From: Escherichia phage vB_EcoS_I14
DNA length: 64,000 nt
Sequence record: PP892525.1
Strand: one strand, 5' to 3'
Made by a program: the position numbers and the translations under genes. Positions within the stretch are counted from its first letter, which is position 1; every line of letters starts with the position of its first letter. The notes under the pieces were generated by a model, which had not been told where the DNA came from, searched no databases, and saw nothing but the letters and a program-made list of their open reading frames with translations. Positions 40,991-46,125 of this stretch are shown here, piece after piece.

Positions 40991-41073
40991 GGGTCGTTAG
41001 CCAAGCGGTTTGGCGGCGGATTGTTAATCCGTGTCGAAAGACAACGTAGGTTCGAATCCTACACGGCCCGCCA
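40991..41073 (+). tRNA. tRNA-Asn(GTT) with extended variable region, tentative
   Basis: Acceptor GGGTCGT/ACGGCCC; D-stem GCCA/TGGC; anticodon stem GCGGA/TCCGT, loop TTGTTAA; CCA encoded. Confidence 0.6.
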
Positions 41074-41175
41074 AATTCTGTGTAGAGTTAAGTAAACCGG
41101 TAGCCAACCAGCTATCATTGCTGACATCGAATTCAGCCACAGATACCATTTTCATTAATAACTGAGGAAACAAGC

Positions 41176-41361
41176 ATGTCCAAGAATGTAATTGCACAGT
41201 TAGAAGTTCATCGTGATAACACAGCTAATAACATTAAGTGCCGACAAAAAGATATTGAAGCTCGAAAGGCTGATCTTTTAATGAGTATTCGAGAGCTTAA
41301 TGTACGAAAAGAGTTTCTTAAAGAACTTAATGCAGCTATTGAAAAACTCAAAGCTGAGTAA
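41176..41361 (+). CDS. hypothetical protein
   Basis: 61 aa ORF. Confidence 0.4.
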   Translation: MSKNVIAQLEVHRDNTANNIKCRQKDIEARKADLLMSIRELNVRKEFLKELNAAIEKLKAE

Positions 41362-41370
41362 ATGAATTAT

Positions 41371-41447
41371 GCGACCGGGGCTGGCTTGGTAATGGTACTC
41401 CCCTGTCACGGGAGGGAATGTGGGTTCAAATCCCATCGGTCGCGCCA
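41371..41447 (+). tRNA. tRNA-Asp(GTC)
   Basis: Perfect acceptor GCGACCG/CGGTCGC; anticodon stem CTCCC/GGGAG, loop CTGTCAC; T-loop TTCAAAT; CCA encoded. Confidence 0.75.
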
Positions 41448-41473
41448 AACTAAACTAGCACGAGAAATATGAT

Positions 41474-41821
41474 ATGGTTAATGCTAAAGAAGAATTGTTA
41501 CTTGCCCTAAAGAATACTAATTCTGAAGTTAAGTGTATTAAGATAGAATTCGGTTATTATGGGGACAAAGAAGTTTGGGTATTACCCATAGGTTATACAG
41601 AAAAAGATATTGAAGATTTTCTAAATAATCTAGACTTTAAATATGATTCTGGTTTCGGTGGACAATTGCTTTATGGTAACGTATGGTTTACTGATGGAAC
41701 TTGGTTAGAACGTGGTGAATACGACGGTTCTGAATGGTGGGAATATAAGGCTACACCAGCAATCCCAGAAGAATGCCGAACAATTAATGGTGAAGTAGAT
41801 CGTACTTTACTATTAAATTAA
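41474..41821 (+). CDS. hypothetical protein
   Basis: 115 aa ORF. Confidence 0.5.
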   Translation: MVNAKEELLLALKNTNSEVKCIKIEFGYYGDKEVWVLPIGYTEKDIEDFLNNLDFKYDSGFGGQLLYGNVWFTDGTWLERGEYDGSEWWEYKATPAIPEECRTINGEVDRTLLLN

Positions 41822-42213
41822 CAAAATTTCAGTGCAGAACACGGAGCTAGCAATTCGGAAGTGCTGACTCATGATAAGCTGCCTATGTACTTGCGAAGCG
41901 GTCGTGTCCAAGACTCGGACTCTTGCACTGAAAACAATCAAACATTCTAGCGTGGTTGATGGGGAAACCAGCTTGGCTAGGGCAGAAGCTCGTTCGATTC
42001 GAGTGAAAGAATGGTTCTCGTAAGTCCGCACAAGTGATAGCAGGTTCGAGTCCTGTCTAGAATGACACTATAAAGTTTACTTATTATGTAGGTTCCGATA
42101 GATCGGCGGGTCTATTCTGGCATTTAAGAGAAGTCTCGCAAACTTTTTTGTCAGCCGTGGGGTTGGTAGCCTCCAGGTGGCCTACACAATAAGTAAATTT
42201 ATTAAAAATTCAT

Positions 42214-42242
42214 TTGCTATTCTGCTTTATTATCTGTATAAT
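42214..42242 (+). promoter_or_regulatory. sigma70-type early promoter
   Basis: TTGCTA-17bp-TATAAT, then TATAAAGTGAAGAGAAGG. Confidence 0.7.
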
Positions 42243-42274
42243 ATATTTTATAAAGTGAAGAGAAGGAAAGCAAA

Positions 42275-42433
42275 ATGAAACACAAGATAGCTCAAGTCTT
42301 TATGGCATTATGGTGTATGCCAATAGCTATAACAGCATTTAATCTAGATACTTTTACTATAGAAGAAAAATATATCGGATTAGTTAGCGGCTTTAGTATG
42401 CTGGGCTTATCTTTGCTGTGGTTAAAGAAATAA
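42275..42433 (+). CDS. hypothetical small membrane protein
   Basis: 52 codons after promoter 42214-42242; hydrophobic; not in the ORF track. Confidence 0.35.
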   Translation: MKHKIAQVFMALWCMPIAITAFNLDTFTIEEKYIGLVSGFSMLGLSLLWLKK

Positions 42434-42437
42434 TATT

Positions 42438-42515
42438 CTCCGTGTAGCTCAGTTTGGCCAGAGCGTTTCGTCTGGAGCGATAGGGTCGGGGGTTCAAATC
42501 CTCCCACGGAGACCA
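42438..42515 (+). tRNA. tRNA-Pro(TGG), tentative
   Basis: Acceptor CTCCGTG/CACGGAG; D-stem GCTC/GAGC; anticodon loop TCTGGAG; T-arm GGGGG-TTCAAAT-CCTCC; CCA encoded. Confidence 0.55.
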
Positions 42516-42521
42516 AATAAT

Positions 42522-42599
42522 TGCGGGTTAGATCTCTGGTAGAGATCGCTAGTCTCATAAGCTAGAAAGAGGTAGGTTCGATTCCTGCACCCGCTTCCA
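42522..42599 (+). tRNA. tRNA with CAT anticodon and unpaired 1-72 (initiator-like Met), tentative
   Basis: Acceptor TGCGGGT/ACCCGCT with U-U at position 1-72; D-stem GATC/GATC; anticodon stem CTAGT/GCTAG, loop CTCATAA; CCA encoded. Confidence 0.55.
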
Positions 42600-42619
42600 T
42601 TTTAATAGAGGATTTCGAA

Positions 42620-42787
42620 ATGAAAGTATTTCGATTAGTAGTAAGTGACAAACGCTTAGGTAAGAATACATCAAAATCCTTACTTGCTCATTATGGTAGA
42701 AATTGGGATGAAGTAATGGCAGAGTTTAGTACTAATCACCCTTACTTGAAAGTTCACTCTATTAAAGAAGTATACAATGGTTACTAA
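42620..42787 (+). CDS. hypothetical small protein
   Basis: 55 codons between tRNA genes; not in the ORF track. Confidence 0.3.
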   Translation: MKVFRLVVSDKRLGKNTSKSLLAHYGRNWDEVMAEFSTNHPYLKVHSIKEVYNGY

Positions 42788-42788
42788 T

Positions 42789-42867
42789 AGATCGCTAGCT
42801 CAATAGGTTTAGTAGCATCCGACTTTTAATCGGAAGGTTCTGGGTTCGAGTCCCAGGCGATCTACCA
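42789..42867 (+). tRNA. tRNA-Lys(TTT)
   Basis: Perfect acceptor AGATCGC/GCGATCT; anticodon stem TCCGA/TCGGA, loop CTTTTAA; T-arm CTGGG-TTCGAGT-CCCAG; CCA encoded. Confidence 0.75.
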
Positions 42868-42871
42868 AATT

Positions 42872-42945
42872 GCTCGGTTAGTTTAATGGGAGAACCCCGT
42901 CTTTACACGGCGGTTGCGATAGTTCGATTCTATCACCGAGTACCA
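42872..42945 (+). tRNA. tRNA-Val(TAC)
   Basis: Acceptor GCTCGGT/ACCGAGT; anticodon stem CCGTC/GGCGG, loop TTTACAC; T-arm GATAG-TTCGATT-CTATC; CCA encoded. Confidence 0.7.
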
Positions 42946-42964
42946 ATTAACTCAAAATAAGGAA

Positions 42965-43324
42965 TTGCAAATGCAATTATCAAGCAAGGTTCAAGGCTAT
43001 TTCGGTCATGTAACAATGGAGTTCGCTATCTCTAAAGGTTGGGACTTCGAACAAGATTTAGCTGAGTTCTACAAAGATATTGATCTGAACGTACCATATA
43101 TGGGACTTTCTACTGGTCAGGAGATCACAGAAGCCGATGTATTCAAGGCAAGTCAAGGTGAGGTAACACCTAGTTTTGCCGAGTTCTGGTTAGGCATTAC
43201 GTTAAAAGAAGATGCACCAGATAGTGGTGTACTAATGTCTAGTTTGCACTCTGGAAGTTCCGATTACCTTTTCATTAGCGATGTTAAGGAAATACAAGAA
43301 GTCTGCAAAAATGTACTTGCTTGA
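42965..43324 (+). CDS. hypothetical protein
   Basis: 119 aa ORF. Confidence 0.5.
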   Translation: MQMQLSSKVQGYFGHVTMEFAISKGWDFEQDLAEFYKDIDLNVPYMGLSTGQEITEADVFKASQGEVTPSFAEFWLGITLKEDAPDSGVLMSSLHSGSSDYLFISDVKEIQEVCKNVLA

Positions 43325-43345
43325 TGCTTAATTTCTTGTTATAAT
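43317..43345 (+). promoter_or_regulatory. sigma70-type promoter preceding an ORF-free segment and tRNA-Ala
   Basis: TTGCTT-17bp-TATAAT; -35 overlaps the end of CDS 42965-43324. Confidence 0.7.
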
Positions 43346-43583
43346 ATTTATATAAATTGATGAGGATTTCTCCTCATCATAGTTCACTAAGGTATTAGCT
43401 CGACCTAGGACTGGCTGCCAAAAAGCACGATCCCTACGATTCGGGAGAAGTTCTAGATTAGTCCACTAGATTCAGCGGCAACTGAATAGTGTATTGGGTT
43501 TGCGAGATGACGCGGTTCCTTCCGCTCGAAGCGAAGGTGCTGTAGTTACGCCGAGCTAATAGCCTTAGTAAACTAAAGAATTT

Positions 43584-43657
43584 GGGGATATAGTTTAATG
43601 GTAGAACATCTGCTTTGCACGCAGAAGACGAGGGTTCAACTCCCTCTTTCTCCACCA
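43584..43657 (+). tRNA. tRNA-Ala(TGC)
   Basis: Acceptor GGGGATA/TTTCTCC with G3-U70; anticodon stem TCTGC/GCAGA, loop TTTGCAC; T-arm GAGGG-TTCAACT-CCCTC; CCA encoded. Confidence 0.7.
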
Positions 43658-43663
43658 AAATTC

Positions 43664-43748
43664 GGGGCTATGCTGGAACTGGTAGACAATACGGCCTTAG
43701 ATTCCGTAGCTTAAATGCGTGGGAGTTCGAGTCTCCCTAGCCCCACCA
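43664..43748 (+). tRNA. tRNA-Leu(TAG), type II
   Basis: Perfect acceptor GGGGCTA/TAGCCCC; anticodon loop CTTAGAT; long variable arm; T-loop GTTCGAGTC; CCA encoded. Confidence 0.7.
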
Positions 43749-43764
43749 ACTTATAGGGTAATGT

Positions 43765-44349
43765 ATGCAGTTTGTACCAATAAAAGATGCACCAGGGTAT
43801 TTAGTAAATGAAACAGGGGATGTGTTATCTACATTTACTAATAAAATTTTATCAAGATATATAGTTGATGGATACCCTGCTGTAAAATTACAGATAAATG
43901 GTAAGCAAACTTCGGTACTTATACACCGAATTATTTCTCATGTATTTGGGGACTTATATAATCTATTTGACCCTGAATTAGAAGTAGATCACAAGGATAG
44001 AGATAGGCTGAATCTATCTAAAGATAATCTTCAAGTTTTATCAAAAATAGAACATCAGAAGAAAACTAATAAAGATAATGGATGGTCTGATAGTAGAGTA
44101 CCTTGCCCCTTATGTGGAAATCTAATGCTTCAGAGATCAGTAACATGTACAAATTGTAAGCCAAAACCTACAGGAAAGTTAATAAAACCAGAGTTGTCCT
44201 TAGAAGACATAACTGAAAAGGTTTTATTAATGGGGTGGGTTAAGGCAGCTAAAGATCTAGAAGTATCAGAGTCCACTTTACGTAGACGATATACTAAACT
44301 AACCGGATTAAGCCCAAAAGTATTAACAGAACAACGGAAAAGCAAATAG
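43765..44349 (+). CDS. HNH homing endonuclease
   Basis: 194 aa; HNH motif VDHKDRDRLNLSKDNLQVL; C-terminal HTH-like tail; within tRNA cluster. Confidence 0.75.
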   Translation: MQFVPIKDAPGYLVNETGDVLSTFTNKILSRYIVDGYPAVKLQINGKQTSVLIHRIISHVFGDLYNLFDPELEVDHKDRDRLNLSKDNLQVLSKIEHQKKTNKDNGWSDSRVPCPLCGNLMLQRSVTCTNCKPKPTGKLIKPELSLEDITEKVLLMGWVKAAKDLEVSESTLRRRYTKLTGLSPKVLTEQRKSK

Positions 44350-44429
44350 ACTGGTGACTAAACCCGATTGGAAATCGGTTGAGTGGTAGCAATACCGCCT
44401 TATGGGTTCAACTCCCATCTTTTCCGCCA
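44336..44429 (+). tRNA. tRNA-Ser(GGA), type II
   Basis: Perfect acceptor GGAAAAG/CTTTTCC; anticodon loop TTGGAAA; long variable arm; CCA encoded; 5' end overlaps the stop of the HNH gene. Confidence 0.65.
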
Positions 44430-44441
44430 AACAATTTATAT

Positions 44442-44536
44442 GGTAGGTCAATCCAACGGCTGGCGCTGGACTCCGACTTGAAATCGGTTGATCGTAGTGA
44501 TACGGTGTAAGGGTTCGATCCCCTTACCTACCTCCA
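44442..44536 (+). tRNA. tRNA-Ser(TGA), type II
   Basis: Perfect acceptor GGTAGGT/ACCTACC; anticodon loop CTTGAAA; T-arm AAGGG-TTCGATC-CCCTT; CCA encoded; unusually long (95 nt). Confidence 0.6.
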
Positions 44537-44902
44537 AATCTTGAAGTATGCCGGAATCGGTAGACGGGGCTGCCTAAAAGGTTTATAGGGAACATCCACT
44601 CCCTGCAACATACCTCATAAAGCGGCTGAGATAAATGGTCTATCTCGTGAAGGTTCAAGTCCTTCTGCTTCTTGATACATCTATGGCTCAAAGTGTAACG
44701 GTGCTATTTGATGCTCTTGGTAAGACTTCCCCGACATGCGTTCGGGAGTAAGCTGCTAAGGCTAGGGTAGAAGAGTTTCTGAGAGCCGCCACAATTGAAA
44801 ATTCGTACTCGTCTTGAGCTGCGTGCAATAGGAGATAACTTGATTAGTATTCTAGAACATGCTAATTGAGGAAGGTTTCGCTAACCCTGCGAGTTTTCAA
44901 TT

Positions 44903-44979
44903 GTGGCTATATCATAATTGGTTAATGATCCTGATTGTGAATCAGGCCTATGTGGATTCGAATTCCACTAGCCACCCCA
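44903..44979 (+). tRNA. tRNA-His(GTG)
   Basis: Perfect acceptor GTGGCTA/TAGCCAC; anticodon stem CCTGA/TCAGG, loop TTGTGAA; T-arm GTGGA-TTCGAAT-TCCAC; CCA encoded. Confidence 0.75.
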
Positions 44980-45003
44980 AATTAACTTAAATAGGAAATA
45001 AAT

Positions 45004-45198
45004 ATGGCTGATTTCTGCAAACAATGCTCCATTGATATGTGGGGCAGAGATACTGGTGATCTTTCTGGTTTGATTACAGAAGCTGAAGTTAAAGAAGGCT
45101 ACGGTGCTGTTGTGGTTTGCGAAGGATGCGGAGTTATTCGAGTAGATCATGAAGGCAAACGTTTGGAAGAATCTGAGCCAACAACGATTTTTCCGTAG
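45004..45198 (+). CDS. hypothetical zinc-ribbon-like small protein
   Basis: 64 aa; CKQC...CEGCG. Confidence 0.45.
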   Translation: MADFCKQCSIDMWGRDTGDLSGLITEAEVKEGYGAVVVCEGCGVIRVDHEGKRLEESEPTTIFP

Positions 45199-45214
45199 AA
45201 TAAGATGAAATTAT

Positions 45215-45290
45215 TGGGATGTAGATCAATTGGCAGATCGTCGGTTTCTGACATCGAAGGTTCCACGTTCGATCCGTGGCATCCCAGCCA
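45215..45290 (+). tRNA. tRNA-Gln(CTG)
   Basis: Acceptor TGGGATG/CATCCCA (U1-A72); D-stem GATC/GATC; anticodon loop TTCTGAC; T-arm CCACG-TTCGATC-CGTGG; CCA encoded. Confidence 0.75.
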
Positions 45291-45296
45291 AACAAT

Positions 45297-45371
45297 TGGA
45301 AAGTAGTGTAATGGTTAGCACTGGAGATTTTGAATCTCTTAGTTAGGGTTCGAATCCCTACTTTCCTGCCA
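45297..45371 (+). tRNA. tRNA-Gln(TTG), tentative
   Basis: Acceptor TGGAAAG/CTTTCCT with 1-72 mismatch; anticodon stem GGAGA/TCTCT, loop TTTTGAA; T-arm TAGGG-TTCGAAT-CCCTA; CCA encoded. Confidence 0.6.
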
Positions 45372-45377
45372 ATTTAC

Positions 45378-45452
45378 GCGTGATTAGTTCAGTGGCTAGA
45401 ATAACTGGCTTCCAACCAGTAGACACGAGTTCGACTCTCGTATCCCGCACCA
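45378..45452 (+). tRNA. tRNA-Gly(TCC)
   Basis: Acceptor GCGTGAT/ATCCCGC (one mismatch); anticodon stem ACTGG/CCAGT, loop CTTCCAA; T-arm ACGAG-TTCGACT-CTCGT; CCA encoded. Confidence 0.65.
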
Positions 45453-45469
45453 ATTTTTAAGGAAACGTT

Positions 45470-45691
45470 ATGCACGTTTTTGAATTTCGTAATAAAAGTA
45501 CCGATAAACGAGTTATTGTTATTGGAGAAACATACCGAGCATACGAACAAACTGACGGCTCTGTTATCTTGAATGACGAGAAAGGAGGTTTTAGCTTTTA
45601 TCCCAAAGAAACTTACGAAGAATTTCGTACAAAGTTTCTTCTACCAGACTGGCTAGAAGTAGCGCAGCAACGAGAACCCGAAGATGGCTGA
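45470..45691 (+). CDS. hypothetical protein
   Basis: 73 aa ORF. Confidence 0.45.
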   Translation: MHVFEFRNKSTDKRVIVIGETYRAYEQTDGSVILNDEKGGFSFYPKETYEEFRTKFLLPDWLEVAQQREPEDG

Positions 45692-45848
45692 TAACCTAAA
45701 AGTCAAGATCGATAAACAAAAGAAACGTGTAGAAGTAGAGATTGGTGAAGAACGTGTAGCCTTCACCTTTGAATTTCTACAACAAATGGCAATGACAGTT
45801 ATGACTGATAAGTCTCCTGTTATTGAAAAAGAAATCCCGTTAAAATAA
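45684..45848 (+). CDS. hypothetical small protein
   Basis: 54 codons; ATGGCTGA overlap with upstream stop; not in the ORF track. Confidence 0.3.
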   Translation: MADNLKVKIDKQKKRVEVEIGEERVAFTFEFLQQMAMTVMTDKSPVIEKEIPLK

Positions 45849-45856
45849 CGGGATCT

Positions 45857-45943
45857 GCTGGGTTGGCAGAATGGTTGAATGCACCTGATTTGTAATCAGG
45901 AGGAGTAATCCCGTTGCAGGTTCGAATCCTGTGCCCAGCACCA
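45857..45943 (+). tRNA. tRNA with TGT anticodon (Thr) and long variable region, tentative
   Basis: Acceptor GCTGGGT/GCCCAGC; anticodon stem CCTGA/TCAGG, loop TTTGTAA; T-arm GCAGG-TTCGAAT-CCTGT; CCA encoded; 87 nt. Confidence 0.55.
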
Positions 45944-45957
45944 ACTTAAGGACTAGT

Positions 45958-46125
45958 ATGTTTAAACTGTTAGTAGTTATCTGGTATAGTCAATCAAATA
46001 GAGCGAATACCTCCCACGTTATAGACTTTAATACTAAAAATGAAGCTGAAAAAGCATACGCTAATTTAATAGAACGTAATAAAGAATCTCGTAGTATAGT
46101 TTATGAAGTGACTAAACTTTATTAA
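45958..46125 (+). CDS. hypothetical small protein
   Basis: ATG 45958 after AAGGA; the track ORF starts at 45931 inside a tRNA. Confidence 0.35.
   Translation: MFKLLVVIWYSQSNRANTSHVIDFNTKNEAEKAYANLIERNKESRSIVYEVTKLY

What the first reader, a model, noticed from the sequence alone, without database searches (positions are those of the whole stretch)
44537..44902. 365-bp ORF-free segment with a 13-bp long-range inverted repeat abutting tRNA-His
Between tRNA-Ser(TGA) and tRNA-His there is no ORF. The segment contains a tRNA-like T-arm (GAAGG-TTCAAGT-CCTTC at 44649-44665) without a matching acceptor, a tRNA-Leu-like D-loop sequence (AATCGGTAGACGG), and a perfect 13-bp inverted repeat CCACAATTGAAAA (about 44788-44800) / TTTTCAATTGTGG (about 44895-44907) enclosing about 95 nt. 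The 3' arm overlaps the 5' acceptor of tRNA-His. This could be a structured ncRNA, a degenerate or permuted tRNA, or a processing element competing with tRNA-His folding.
Basis: seen in the sequence. Interest (0 to 1): 0.65.

Follow-up and report, generated by a model that had tools for sequence, protein, structure and literature searches.

The report
Known T5 stable RNAs beside tRNA-His
The ORF-free stretch holds three small stable RNAs already catalogued in phage T5 (RNA1, RNAI, RNAIII); the inverted repeat is the conserved closing helix of the third, which in the uncut transcript also ties up the start of tRNA-His, and what these RNAs do is still unknown.

Summary
The window is a T5-like phage (Tequintavirus). 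Segment 44537-44902 matches, base for base, three misc_RNA features of the T5 RefSeq record: RNA1 (tRNA-like, 44540-44684), RNAI (44685-44791) and RNAIII (44796-44901). All three are annotated "stable RNA with unknown functions". There is no real ORF. The inverted repeat is 14 bp perfect and 20 bp with two G-U pairs, and no shuffle reached it.

Twelve of its pairs show compensatory changes across 23 phage variants. Its anticodon loop is replaced by a 48-nt arm.

The repeat is the closing helix of RNAIII, extended through the CCA end of RNAI and the first five bases of tRNA-His. In related phages this slot carries at least five unrelated-looking cassettes. All keep a roughly 20-bp helix, with nine covarying pairs and wobbles only on the + strand.

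Folding predicts that the helix out-competes the tRNA-His acceptor stem by about 9.5 kcal/mol until it is cut.

Verdict: real, structured and conserved, but already known. The function is open, as for T4 RNAC and RNAD. The cassette polymorphism and the gating of tRNA-His are the only parts that may be new.

The parts
44442..44535 (+). tRNA-Ser(UGA), the upstream neighbour (context)
   Evidence: Rfam tRNA-Sec model, 38.3 bits, below the gathering score. ARAGORN does not call it. It occupies the slot of T5 tRNA-Ser1(UGA). Acceptor GGTAGGT/ACCTACC and the T-arm were read from the sequence.
44540..44684 (+). RNA1 homologue: a tRNA-Leu-like stable RNA. The cloverleaf core is 44542-44676.
   Evidence: 85% identical to T5 misc_RNA rna1, 'tRNA-like stable RNA with unknown functions'. 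RNAalifold predicts a cloverleaf. On my structure, 35 pairs are 97.4% paired and 12 carry compensatory changes, against 0-2 in the slid controls.
44543..44548 (+). RNA1 acceptor stem, 5' strand GAAGUA, pairing with 44666-44671 UGCUUC
   Evidence: Four of the six pairs change on both sides among relatives, for example GGAAUA/UGUUCC in T5.
44574..44621 (+). RNA1 expansion that replaces the 7-nt anticodon loop. It has a 4-bp helix, then hairpin 44586-44591/44600-44605 with the near-invariant loop ACAUCCAC at 44592-44599.
   Evidence: It is closed by the anticodon stem 44569-44573/44622-44626, where 2 pairs covary. In the inner hairpin 4 of 6 pairs covary. The loop is conserved in 22 of 23 variants (T5 itself has ACAUCCGC).
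44628..44646 (+). RNA1 long variable arm, GAGAUA-AAUGGUC-UAUCUC
   Evidence: 100% paired; A-U changes to U-A in 4 variants.
44649..44665 (+).
   Evidence: The stem is invariant in all 23 variants. It is followed directly by the 3' acceptor strand.
44685..44791 (+). RNAI homologue, 107 nt: a rod-like RNA with the 5-bp acceptor-like stem GGCUC/GAGCC, a discriminator G, and an encoded CCA
   Evidence: 92% identical to T5 misc_RNA rnaI. RNAalifold finds 22 pairs, 5 of them with compensatory changes. Two sequence types fold to the same rod shape. It has T at -1 and a CCA|CAATT trailer, like the tRNAs of the window.
44792..44795 (+). Spacer CAAU between the CCA of RNAI and the 5' end of RNAI
   Evidence: A gap between the T5 annotations; invariant in all relatives. 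The spacer lies between RNAI and RNAIII and forms part of the 5' arm of the long helix.
44796..44901 (+). RNAIII homologue, 106 nt: a 12-bp terminal helix, three arms, and a 2-nt 3' tail
   Evidence: 99% identical to T5 misc_RNA rnaIII. MFE -29.9 kcal/mol, z = -2.7. It is 98-100% identical among 23 Tequintavirus loci.
44788..44807 (+). 5' arm of the 20-bp precursor helix: GCCA of RNAI, the CAAU spacer, and the first 12 nt of RNAIII
   Evidence: Across 6 distinct arm sets from alternative cassettes, 97.5% of cells are paired and 9 pairs covary.
44888..44907 (+). 3' arm of the 20-bp precursor helix: the last 14 nt of RNAIII, U44902, and G1-C5 of tRNA-His
   Evidence: Same calls as the 5' arm. 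Pair probabilities are about 1.0 in the precursor, and the tRNA-His G1-C72 pair has probability 0.0.
44903..44979 (+). tRNA-His(GUG), whose 5' acceptor strand is shared with the helix
   Evidence: ARAGORN; Rfam tRNA, 59.9 bits. It is 100% identical in most Markadamsvirinae.

Best explanation
The segment is the T5-family block of three small stable non-coding RNAs. They are co-transcribed with the tRNA cluster and cut out by the host tRNA-processing machinery.

- RNA1 is a tRNA-Leu-derived cloverleaf. Its anticodon loop has been replaced by a long arm, and it cannot decode.
- RNAI is a rod-shaped RNA with an acceptor-like stem and an encoded CCA.
- RNAIII is a multi-arm RNA closed by a long terminal helix.

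In the primary transcript it continues outward for 8 more base pairs, pairing the GCCA end of RNAI plus the CAAU spacer with AUU plus GUGGC of tRNA-His. The result is a 20-bp duplex.

Shown here: the homology, the structures, the covariation, the conservation of the helix across interchangeable cassettes, and its predicted dominance over the tRNA-His acceptor stem.

Inferred:
1. RNase P makes the 5' ends. Each 5' end is flush with a helix and preceded by U.
2. 3' exonucleases trim the trailers.
3. The duplex must be cut or opened before tRNA-His can fold. The cut could be made by RNase III, or the duplex could be opened by breathing and RNase P. Either way the helix both closes a nuclease-resistant RNAIII and orders the maturation of RNAI, RNAIII and tRNA-His.

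The cellular role of the three mature RNAs is not established. My leading guess is that they act as tRNA-mimicking ligands or decoys for host tRNA-binding or tRNA-cleaving proteins.
For: - Identity: the T5 RefSeq record lists rna1, rnaI and rnaIII as stable RNAs between tRNA-Ser1 and tRNA-His. The window aligns to them at 85%, 92% and 99% identity with the same order and spacing.
- RNA1: RNAalifold finds a cloverleaf. Of 35 pairs, 97.4% are paired and 12 carry compensatory changes; 0/500 shuffles reach the observed covariation score and the slid controls give 0-2. The D-arm is closest to the phage's own tRNA-Leu(UAG).
- RNAI: an acceptor-like stem plus NCCA, with an inner hairpin that covaries.
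- Helix: 14 bp perfect, 20 bp with G-U. No shuffle of 200 reached 13 bp. Folding z = -5.6.
- Helix conservation: six distinct cassette arm sets are 97.5% paired, with 9 pairs carrying compensatory changes, against 0-3 in the slid controls. G-U pairs occur only on the + strand.
- A different genus: Klebsiella Sugarlandvirus has a different 19-bp helix that again pairs an upstream CCA with U-1 G1 G2 of tRNA-His.
- Competition with tRNA-His: the precursor with the helix folds at -65.8 kcal/mol, against -56.3 with the cloverleaf enforced (MFE).
- Processing signals: T at -1 and CCA|AATT trailers are the rule for the window's tRNAs, and also for RNAI and RNAIII.
- General pattern: all seven T5 stable RNAs fold with a 5'/3' terminal helix and a short 3' tail.
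- Precedents: E. coli RNase III takes part in T4 tRNA maturation (PMC4810235). Sequestering a 5' leader blocks RNase P (PMC7897497 abstract).
Against: - No expression or end-mapping data could be consulted. The mature ends come only from the GenBank annotation.
- The outer 8 bp of the helix never vary within Markadamsvirinae, so they carry no covariation. They could partly be a by-product of palindromic AATT-type inter-tRNA spacers plus the CCA/UGG coincidence.
- The E. coli in vivo RNase III preference for a G-C pair between the two cut sites is not met. The two pairs here would be A-U and U-A (PMC6212723).
- RNase P normally prefers an unpaired leader.
- Nearest-neighbour energies ignore tRNA tertiary structure.
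- The internal arms of RNAIII rest on thermodynamic prediction only, because the sequence is 98-100% conserved.
- The decoy function is a guess with no direct support.
Confidence: 0.72

Rival explanations
1. The 20-bp helix is specifically an RNase III site. A staggered double cut releases RNAIII with a 2-nt 3' overhang. It frees the RNAI 3' trailer for trimming to CCA. It also frees the 5' strand of tRNA-His, possibly leaving the extra 5' nucleotide (U-1) that histidine tRNAs need.
For: - The duplex is about two helical turns and uninterrupted.
- The T5 annotation puts the RNAIII 5' end at 44796 and its 3' end at 44901, and gives tRNA-His as 78 nt starting at U-1. On the helix these ends give exactly a 2-nt 3' overhang.
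- The helix out-competes the acceptor stem, so an endonucleolytic cut would be useful.
- RNase III acts on T4 tRNA precursors (PMC4810235).
- A double cut leaving 2-nt 3' overhangs is the in vivo rule (PMC6212723).
Against: - The two base pairs between the putative cuts are A-U and U-A. In vivo targets usually have at least one G-C there.
- A 2-nt tail is equally what 3' exonuclease trimming leaves after an RNase P cut at +1.
- U at -1 is the general leader convention of nearly all tRNAs in this phage and is not special to tRNA-His.
- The 78-nt annotation may be by analogy with E. coli rather than measured.
Confidence: 0.3
2. The repeat is a DNA-level feature: the terminal inverted repeats or target-site duplication of a small mobile or recombining cassette inserted in the RNAI/tRNA-His spacer. 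On this view the RNA helix has no function.
For: - At least five alternative cassettes occupy the same slot between invariant CAATTG copies. The Klebsiella phage has AAATTT on both sides.
- RNA1, RNAI and cassette types are reassorted among phages.
- Each alternative cassette is found in 15-65 phage records.
- Homing endonuclease genes lie nearby.
Against: - The inner 10 bp differ between cassettes yet stay complementary, with 9 covarying pairs.
- Mismatches are G-U on the + strand only. On the other strand, or in a DNA cruciform, these would be A-C.
- CAATTG is not over-represented in the window: 27 found against 23 expected.
- AATT-type spacers are the ordinary inter-tRNA spacers here.
- RNAIII is annotated as a stable RNA.
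- Cassette exchange by recombination is compatible with the best explanation and does not replace it.
Confidence: 0.1
3. The segment is decaying tRNA pseudogene debris, or it encodes small proteins, as several GenBank records annotate across RNAI and RNAIII.
For: - ARAGORN and Rfam find no tRNA in 44537-44902.
- Some records call 'hypothetical protein' CDSs here, for example bas26_0126, QFG07649 and GECvBN7_gp079c.
Against: - Compensatory substitutions are extensive.
- The segment matches 499 phage records.
- RNAIII is 98-100% identical across loci.
- The window has no ORF of 60 aa or more, and no ORF is conserved across the cassette types.
Confidence: 0.03

Closest known systems
Bacteriophage T5 stable RNAs rna1 (RNA1), rnaI (RNAI) and rnaIII (RNAIII): misc_RNA features T5s03, T5s02 and T5s01 of NC_005859
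   Same: Same genes. They sit in the same position between tRNA-Ser(UGA) and tRNA-His, in the same order and with the same lengths (145/144, 107/107, 106/106 nt). Identity is 85%, 92% and 99%. Phage DT571/2 carries the same annotation for rnaI and rnaIII.
   Different: The window's RNA1 is a different allele from T5's, with many paired substitutions in the acceptor stem and the expansion arm. T5 has an extra small ORF (T5.063) between tRNA-Ser and RNA1 that the window lacks.
Bacteriophage T4 RNAC and RNAD (species 1 and 2 RNAs) in the T4 tRNA cluster
   Same: These are small stable RNAs of 139 and 119 nt. They are encoded tandemly at the end of a phage tRNA cluster and abut a tRNA. They have tRNA-like pieces (rnaC has a CCGGG-UUCGAAU-CCCGG T-arm) and a CACC(A) end followed by an AAUUA spacer. 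Their roles are unknown (PMC3014915; PMC9697503).
   Different: There is no detectable sequence similarity to the window's RNAs; the best blastn-short matches are 11 nt. T4 is a different phage family. No equivalent of the helix bridging into a downstream tRNA was examined.
RNase III processing stems: rRNA operon stems, and T4 tRNA precursor processing
   Same: A long, nearly perfect intramolecular duplex formed by sequences flanking a stable RNA. The annotated ends are compatible with a 2-nt 3' overhang.
   Different: The preferred G-C pair between the cut sites is absent. Cleavage was not shown. The excised product has only 12 bp of the stem.
Class II tRNA-Leu
   Same: RNA1 has a 3-bp D-stem with a GGAAUCGGUAGAC-type D-loop, closest to the phage's own tRNA-Leu(UAG). 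It also has a long variable arm, a UUCAAGU T-loop, and a 7-position acceptor.
   Different: A 48-nt arm stands in place of the 7-nt anticodon loop. The 1:72 position is a U-U mismatch. There is no A73 and no CCA. tRNA detectors do not recognise it.
Non-tRNA RNase P substrates such as 4.5S RNA precursors (from general knowledge, not tested here)
   Same: RNAI is a rod-like hairpin whose 5' end is flush with the basal helix and whose 3' strand ends in RCCA.
   Different: There is no Rfam match to SRP or any other family. RNase P cleavage was not shown.

Membership tests
T5 stable RNAs RNA1 / RNAI / RNAIII | Sequence homology to the T5 misc_RNA loci | tested here: met
   blastn gives 84.8%, 91.6% and 99.1% identity over the full lengths; alignment A1.
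T5 stable RNAs RNA1 / RNAI / RNAIII | Synteny: tRNA-Ser(UGA), RNA1, RNAI, 4-nt spacer, RNAIII, tRNA-His, all on one strand | tested here: met
   The same layout holds in 30 related loci.
T5 stable RNAs RNA1 / RNAI / RNAIII | Accumulation as discrete stable RNAs in infected cells | not testable with these tools
   The only support is the RefSeq note 'stable RNA with unknown functions'. No paper on these RNAs was found in the library.
Canonical tRNA (applied to RNA1) | Cloverleaf with acceptor, D, anticodon and T stems | tested here: met
   7 helices, 97.4% paired, 12 covarying pairs.
Canonical tRNA (applied to RNA1) | A 7-nt anticodon loop with U33 and an anticodon | tested here: not met
   A 48-nt expansion lies between the strands of the anticodon stem. 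The bases next to the stem vary between types (CUAAAA, CUAAAG, CGAAUA, CCAAUA).
Canonical tRNA (applied to RNA1) | 3' NCCA end, encoded as in the other tRNAs of this phage | tested here: not met
   The acceptor 3' strand is followed by UUGAUACAUCUAU. All other tRNAs of the window, and RNAI, encode CCA.
Canonical tRNA (applied to RNA1) | Recognised by tRNA models | tested here: not met
   ARAGORN finds nothing. Rfam at E<=10 finds nothing in 44537-44902. The 3' half of a homologue scores only 24 bits.
RNase III double-cleavage substrate | An intramolecular duplex of about two helical turns | tested here: met
   A 20-bp helix, present in every cassette type.
RNase III double-cleavage substrate | Product ends offset to give 2-nt 3' overhangs | tested here: inconclusive
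   The annotated RNAIII ends (44796 and 44901) give a 2-nt overhang. But the ends are taken from annotation, and exonuclease trimming would give the same tail.
RNase III double-cleavage substrate | At least one G-C among the two pairs between the cut sites (in vivo preference, PMC6212723) | tested here: not met
   The pairs 44794:44901 and 44795:44900 are A-U and U-A.
RNase III double-cleavage substrate | Dependence of the ends on rnc | not testable with these tools
   This needs infection of an RNase III-deficient host.
T4 RNAC / RNAD | Sequence homology | tested here: not met
   blastn-short of T4 rnaC and rnaD against window 41001-45000 gives only chance matches of 11 nt or less.
Any Rfam family | A covariance-model match | tested here: not met
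   No hit at E<=10 in 44537-44902. No hit for the alternative cassettes at E<=0.5.

The most novel reading that the evidence does not exclude
The conserved 20-bp helix is a phage device that gates tRNA-His maturation. It captures the 5' acceptor strand as soon as that strand is transcribed, and only a double-strand cut releases it. That cut may fix an unusual 5' end (U-1) that substitutes for the G-1:C73-guided RNase P cut of the host. The apical position of the helix serves as a plug-in slot for interchangeable, individually highly conserved RNA cassettes (the RNAIII family and others). These cassettes would act as tRNA-like decoys against host tRNA-targeting defences.
Probability: 0.08. Interest if true: 0.65.

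Novelty: already known. Interest (0 to 1): 0.3.

Why it matters
These RNAs, like T4 RNAC and RNAD, are phage-encoded stable RNAs with no assigned function. T5 tRNAs have recently been shown to neutralise tRNA-cleaving defences: tRNA-Lys against PARIS (PMC11464382) and tRNA-Tyr against retron Eco7 (cited in PMC10644984). That makes a tRNA-Leu mimic without an anticodon loop, and its neighbours, obvious candidates for related roles.

This analysis adds three things to the bare annotation:
- covariation-backed structures for RNA1 and for the helix;
- the finding that the RNAIII slot holds interchangeable cassettes that all keep a 20-bp closing helix;
- the prediction that this helix blocks tRNA-His folding until it is cut.

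All three can be tested directly with standard RNase mutants and T5 deletion mutants. As a discovery of a new element, however, the finding is a rediscovery.

Tried and rejected
- Rfam found nothing. At E<=10 on 43500-46000 only the flanking tRNAs hit, and nothing hit inside the segment. The alternative cassettes also match nothing.
- Small tRNA intron in RNA1: rejected. The bases flanking the expansion are not conserved as an anticodon loop, U33 is replaced in the T5 type, and the segment is far too short for a group I intron.
- Intrinsic terminator at 44877-44893 (scanner hit): rejected. Its stem is a weak alternative to the covarying terminal helix. tRNA-His follows with no promoter, and the hit is one of 6 found against 2.0 expected.
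- Protein coding: rejected.
- T-loop motif in the 3' hairpin of RNAIII: rejected. The loops UUCGCUA and CUGAUCA lack the U54/A58 pattern. The hairpin, with a conserved A-C mismatch, is nevertheless shared by cassettes A, D, E and the Klebsiella one (read).
- Link between U-1 of tRNA-His and the helix: weakened. T at -1 is the rule for nearly all tRNAs here. Other Demerecviridae and a Seunavirus also have U-1, while two Erwinia phages have G-1.
- CAATTG as a special DNA site: no enrichment.
- Homology to T4 rnaC and rnaD: none.
- Two IMG/VR pattern scans returned essentially the same T5-like genomes and no wider diversity.
- Literature searches found no paper in the held library that studies these RNAs.
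- Pfam on the neighbouring 64-aa CxxC ORF found nothing.

Full report
**What the window is.** ARAGORN finds 24 tRNA genes on the + strand between 36.3 and 46.9 kb. blastn of 44300-45000 against GenBank phages hits 618 records, nearly all T5-like phages of Escherichia, Salmonella and Klebsiella, with the best at 99% identity. The window is therefore the tRNA region of a Tequintavirus (Demerecviridae).

**Checking the observation.**
- No ORF of 60 aa or more touches 44537-44902. The longest is a 55-aa TTG ORF on the minus strand.
- The repeat finder reports the inverted repeat as 18 nt, 17/18 complementary, at 44788-44805 and 44890-44907.
- The perfect core is 14 bp. With two G-U pairs the helix is 20 bp.
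- None of 200 dinucleotide shuffles of the surrounding 601 nt gave a perfect inverted repeat longer than 12.
- The 3' arm covers G1-C5 of tRNA-His.
- One sub-claim is wrong: the T-arm at 44649-44665 does have a matching acceptor stem (see RNA1 below).

**What it is.** The T5 RefSeq record NC_005859 annotates three misc_RNAs between tRNA-Ser1(UGA) and tRNA-His:
- rna1, "RNA1, tRNA-like stable RNA with unknown functions", 144 nt;
- rnaI, "RNAI, stable RNA with unknown functions", 107 nt;
- rnaIII, "RNAIII", 106 nt, after a 4-nt gap and directly abutting tRNA-His.

The window aligns to these at 85%, 92% and 99% identity. That gives RNA1 = 44540-44684, RNAI = 44685-44791, spacer CAAT = 44792-44795 and RNAIII = 44796-44901. 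DT571/2 carries the same annotation for rnaI and rnaIII. The 365-nt "segment" is therefore three known genes. The other four T5 stable RNAs (RNA3, RNA2, RNAIV, RNA2H) also have homologues in the window.

**RNA1.** I aligned 23 distinct variants from T5-like phages and two Klebsiella Sugarlandvirus phages.
- RNAalifold independently predicts a cloverleaf.
- On the tRNA-style structure, 35 pairs are 97.4% paired and 12 pairs change on both sides. Versions with one strand slid by 1-3 columns give 0-2 such pairs, and 0/500 shuffles reach the observed covariation score.
- The acceptor stem is GAAGUA/UGCUUC (GGAAUA/UGUUCC in T5).
- The D-arm is of the tRNA-Leu type and is closest to the phage's own tRNA-Leu(UAG).
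- There is a long variable arm and a standard T-arm.
- The anticodon stem is kept, with two covarying pairs. It closes a 48-nt arm instead of a 7-nt loop. That arm ends in a hairpin whose stem covaries at four of six pairs and whose 8-nt loop, ACAUCCAC, is the same in 22 of 23 variants (T5 itself has ACAUCCGC).
- No CCA is encoded, although every tRNA of the window and RNAI encode it.
- RNA1 is thus a selected, non-decoding tRNA-Leu derivative. It is neither debris nor a permuted tRNA.

**RNAI.** It starts GGCUC and ends GAGCC-G-CCA. Two sequence types exist with unrelated central parts. Both fold into a rod closed by the 5-bp acceptor-like stem. Five pairs of the consensus covary. It has T at -1 and a CCA|CAATT trailer, exactly like the tRNAs of the cluster.

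**RNAIII and the inverted repeat.**
- RNAIII folds into a 12-bp terminal helix plus three arms (z = -2.7).
- With flanks the helix grows to 20 bp (z = -5.6) by pairing GCCA-CAAU with AUU-GUGGC.
- The most informative result comes from aligning the Ser-to-His interval of 31 distinct loci. RNA1 and RNAI are retained, but the slot between ...GAGCCGCCA-CAATTG and CAATT-GTGGC holds at least five different inserts:
  - A, RNAIII itself;
  - B, a roughly 57-nt element;
  - C, a bare hairpin (L016);
  - D, about 126 nt;
  - E, about 130 nt.
- The full segment with type A is found in 268 GenBank records. Type B is in 65, type D in 55 and type E in 15.
- Each type is itself 90-100% conserved, and RNAIII is 98-100% identical in 23 loci.
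- All types keep a helix of about 20 bp. On the six distinct arm sets, 97.5% of cells pair and 9 of the 10 variable positions change on both sides, against 0-3 in the slid controls.
- The non-Watson-Crick pairs are G-U on the + strand, so selection acts on the + strand RNA.
- Klebsiella phage vB_Kpn_K7_rec14 has a different 19-bp helix (CCAAAUUUGAGCAUCAUCG / CGAUGGUGCUCAAAUUUGG). It again joins the CCA of an RNAI-like RNA to U-1 G1 G2 of tRNA-His.
- Cassettes A, D, E and the Klebsiella one share a 3' hairpin with a 7-nt loop and a conserved A-C mismatch just before the 3' strand of the helix (read). They are probably diverged homologues.
- RNA1, RNAI and cassette types occur in reassorted combinations. 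Modules therefore recombine.

**Consequence for tRNA-His.**
- In the MFE of 44685-44982 the 20-bp helix forms and the tRNA-His acceptor stem does not.
- For 44785-44979 the helix conformation is -65.8 kcal/mol, against -56.3 kcal/mol with the cloverleaf enforced. Helix pair probabilities are about 1.0 and the G1-C72 pair has probability 0.0.
- The helix is also completed before the 3' half of the tRNA is transcribed.
- The prediction is that tRNA-His cannot fold until the duplex is cut or opened.

**Which nuclease.** The annotated ends fit two schemes.
- RNase P plus exonucleases. All seven T5 stable RNAs have a 5' end flush with a terminal helix and a 2-5-nt 3' tail. RNAI and RNAIII are preceded by U, like almost every tRNA here.
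- RNase III. The ends 44796 and 44901 give a 2-nt 3' overhang on a two-turn duplex, which is the in vivo signature (PMC6212723). RNase III is known to take part in T4 tRNA maturation (PMC4810235). Against this, the two pairs between the putative cuts are A-U and U-A, whereas in vivo sites usually have a G-C there. A 2-nt tail is also what exonuclease trimming leaves.
- I rate RNase III involvement at about 0.3.

**Caveat on the outer 8 bp.** They never vary in Markadamsvirinae. CCA|AATT-type palindromic spacers are the norm between tRNAs in this phage, and CCA is inherently complementary to the UGG of tRNA-His. Part of the extension may therefore be a by-product of these conventions. CAATTG is not enriched in the window.

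**Comparison with known systems.**
- The element is a member of the T5 stable-RNA loci by homology and synteny.
- It works like, but is not homologous to, T4 RNAC and RNAD. Their roles are also unknown (PMC3014915; PMC9697503).
- No Rfam family matches.

**Function.** It is unknown. RNAIII and the RNA1 loop are constrained at the sequence level. RNA1 and RNAI have tRNA-like features. T5 tRNAs are known to counter tRNA-cleaving defences (PMC11464382; PMC10644984). Together these make a decoy or ligand role the most attractive guess, but nothing here tests it.

**Verdict.** The element is already known. The cassette polymorphism, the covariation-backed helix and the predicted gating of tRNA-His are possibly new details, and all are directly testable.

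Noticed in passing
window 44442-44535: ARAGORN misses tRNA-Ser(UGA), and Rfam scores it only 38.3 bits with the tRNA-Sec model, below the gathering score. It is a different allele from T5 tRNA-Ser1(UGA) but occupies the same slot. Its acceptor stem and T-arm look intact.
   Followed up: partly
window 41076-41148, 41943-42067, 42086-42188, 43393-43564: These are homologues of the four other T5 'stable RNAs' (RNA3, RNA2, RNAIV, RNA2H) at 97-100% identity. All fold with a 5'/3' terminal helix and a short 3' tail (UACCA, ACA, CA, GCC). RNA2 and RNA3 are tRNA-like.
   Followed up: partly
L034, L016, L033, L030, L012 (slot equivalent to window 44792-44902): At least five alternative RNA cassettes occupy the RNAIII slot in related phages. 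Each is highly conserved within its type, and each is closed by a helix of about 20 bp. None matches Rfam. RNA1, RNAI and cassette types are reassorted among genomes.
   Followed up: yes
L037 about 1340-1460 and L012 (between RNA1 and RNAI): Two Epseptimavirus-like phages carry an extra module of about 120 nt inserted between RNA1 and RNAI. It is absent from the window, and its nature was not examined.
   Followed up: no
window 44902; L031 193; L039 1493; L040 150: The base 5' of tRNA-His G1 is T, not the G-1 that E. coli encodes. This holds in T5-like, Sugarlandvirus, Novosibvirus and Seunavirus phages. Two Erwinia phages have G. T5 RefSeq annotates tRNA-His as 78 nt starting at this U. How these tRNAs obtain the extra 5' nucleotide that HisRS normally requires, or manage without it, is unclear. 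T at -1 is, however, the rule for nearly all tRNAs of the window.
   Followed up: partly
L031 194-270: The tRNA-His of the Klebsiella Sugarlandvirus has discriminator U73 instead of the C73 typical of bacterial tRNA-His.
   Followed up: no
window 45004-45198: A 64-aa ORF (T5.062 homologue, 88% DNA identity) between tRNA-His and tRNA-Gln has two CxxC pairs, so it resembles a zinc ribbon. It has no Pfam match.
   Followed up: partly
L029 1346-1525, L030 1346-1531, L034 1299-1505, L035 1297-1503: Several GenBank records annotate 'hypothetical protein' CDSs across the RNAI and RNAIII-slot region. Given the RNA covariation, these are probably mis-annotations.
   Followed up: partly
window 44536-44541, compared with L001 4652-4825: T5 has a 174-nt ORF (T5.063) between tRNA-Ser1 and RNA1. 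The window has only about 5 nt there. DT571/2 lacks RNA1 altogether.
   Followed up: no
L039 1360-1431: Proteus phage 2 has an unannotated tRNA-like gene (Rfam tRNA, 40.5 bits) ending in ACCA. Two hairpins follow it, and the second abuts tRNA-His and includes G1.
   Followed up: no
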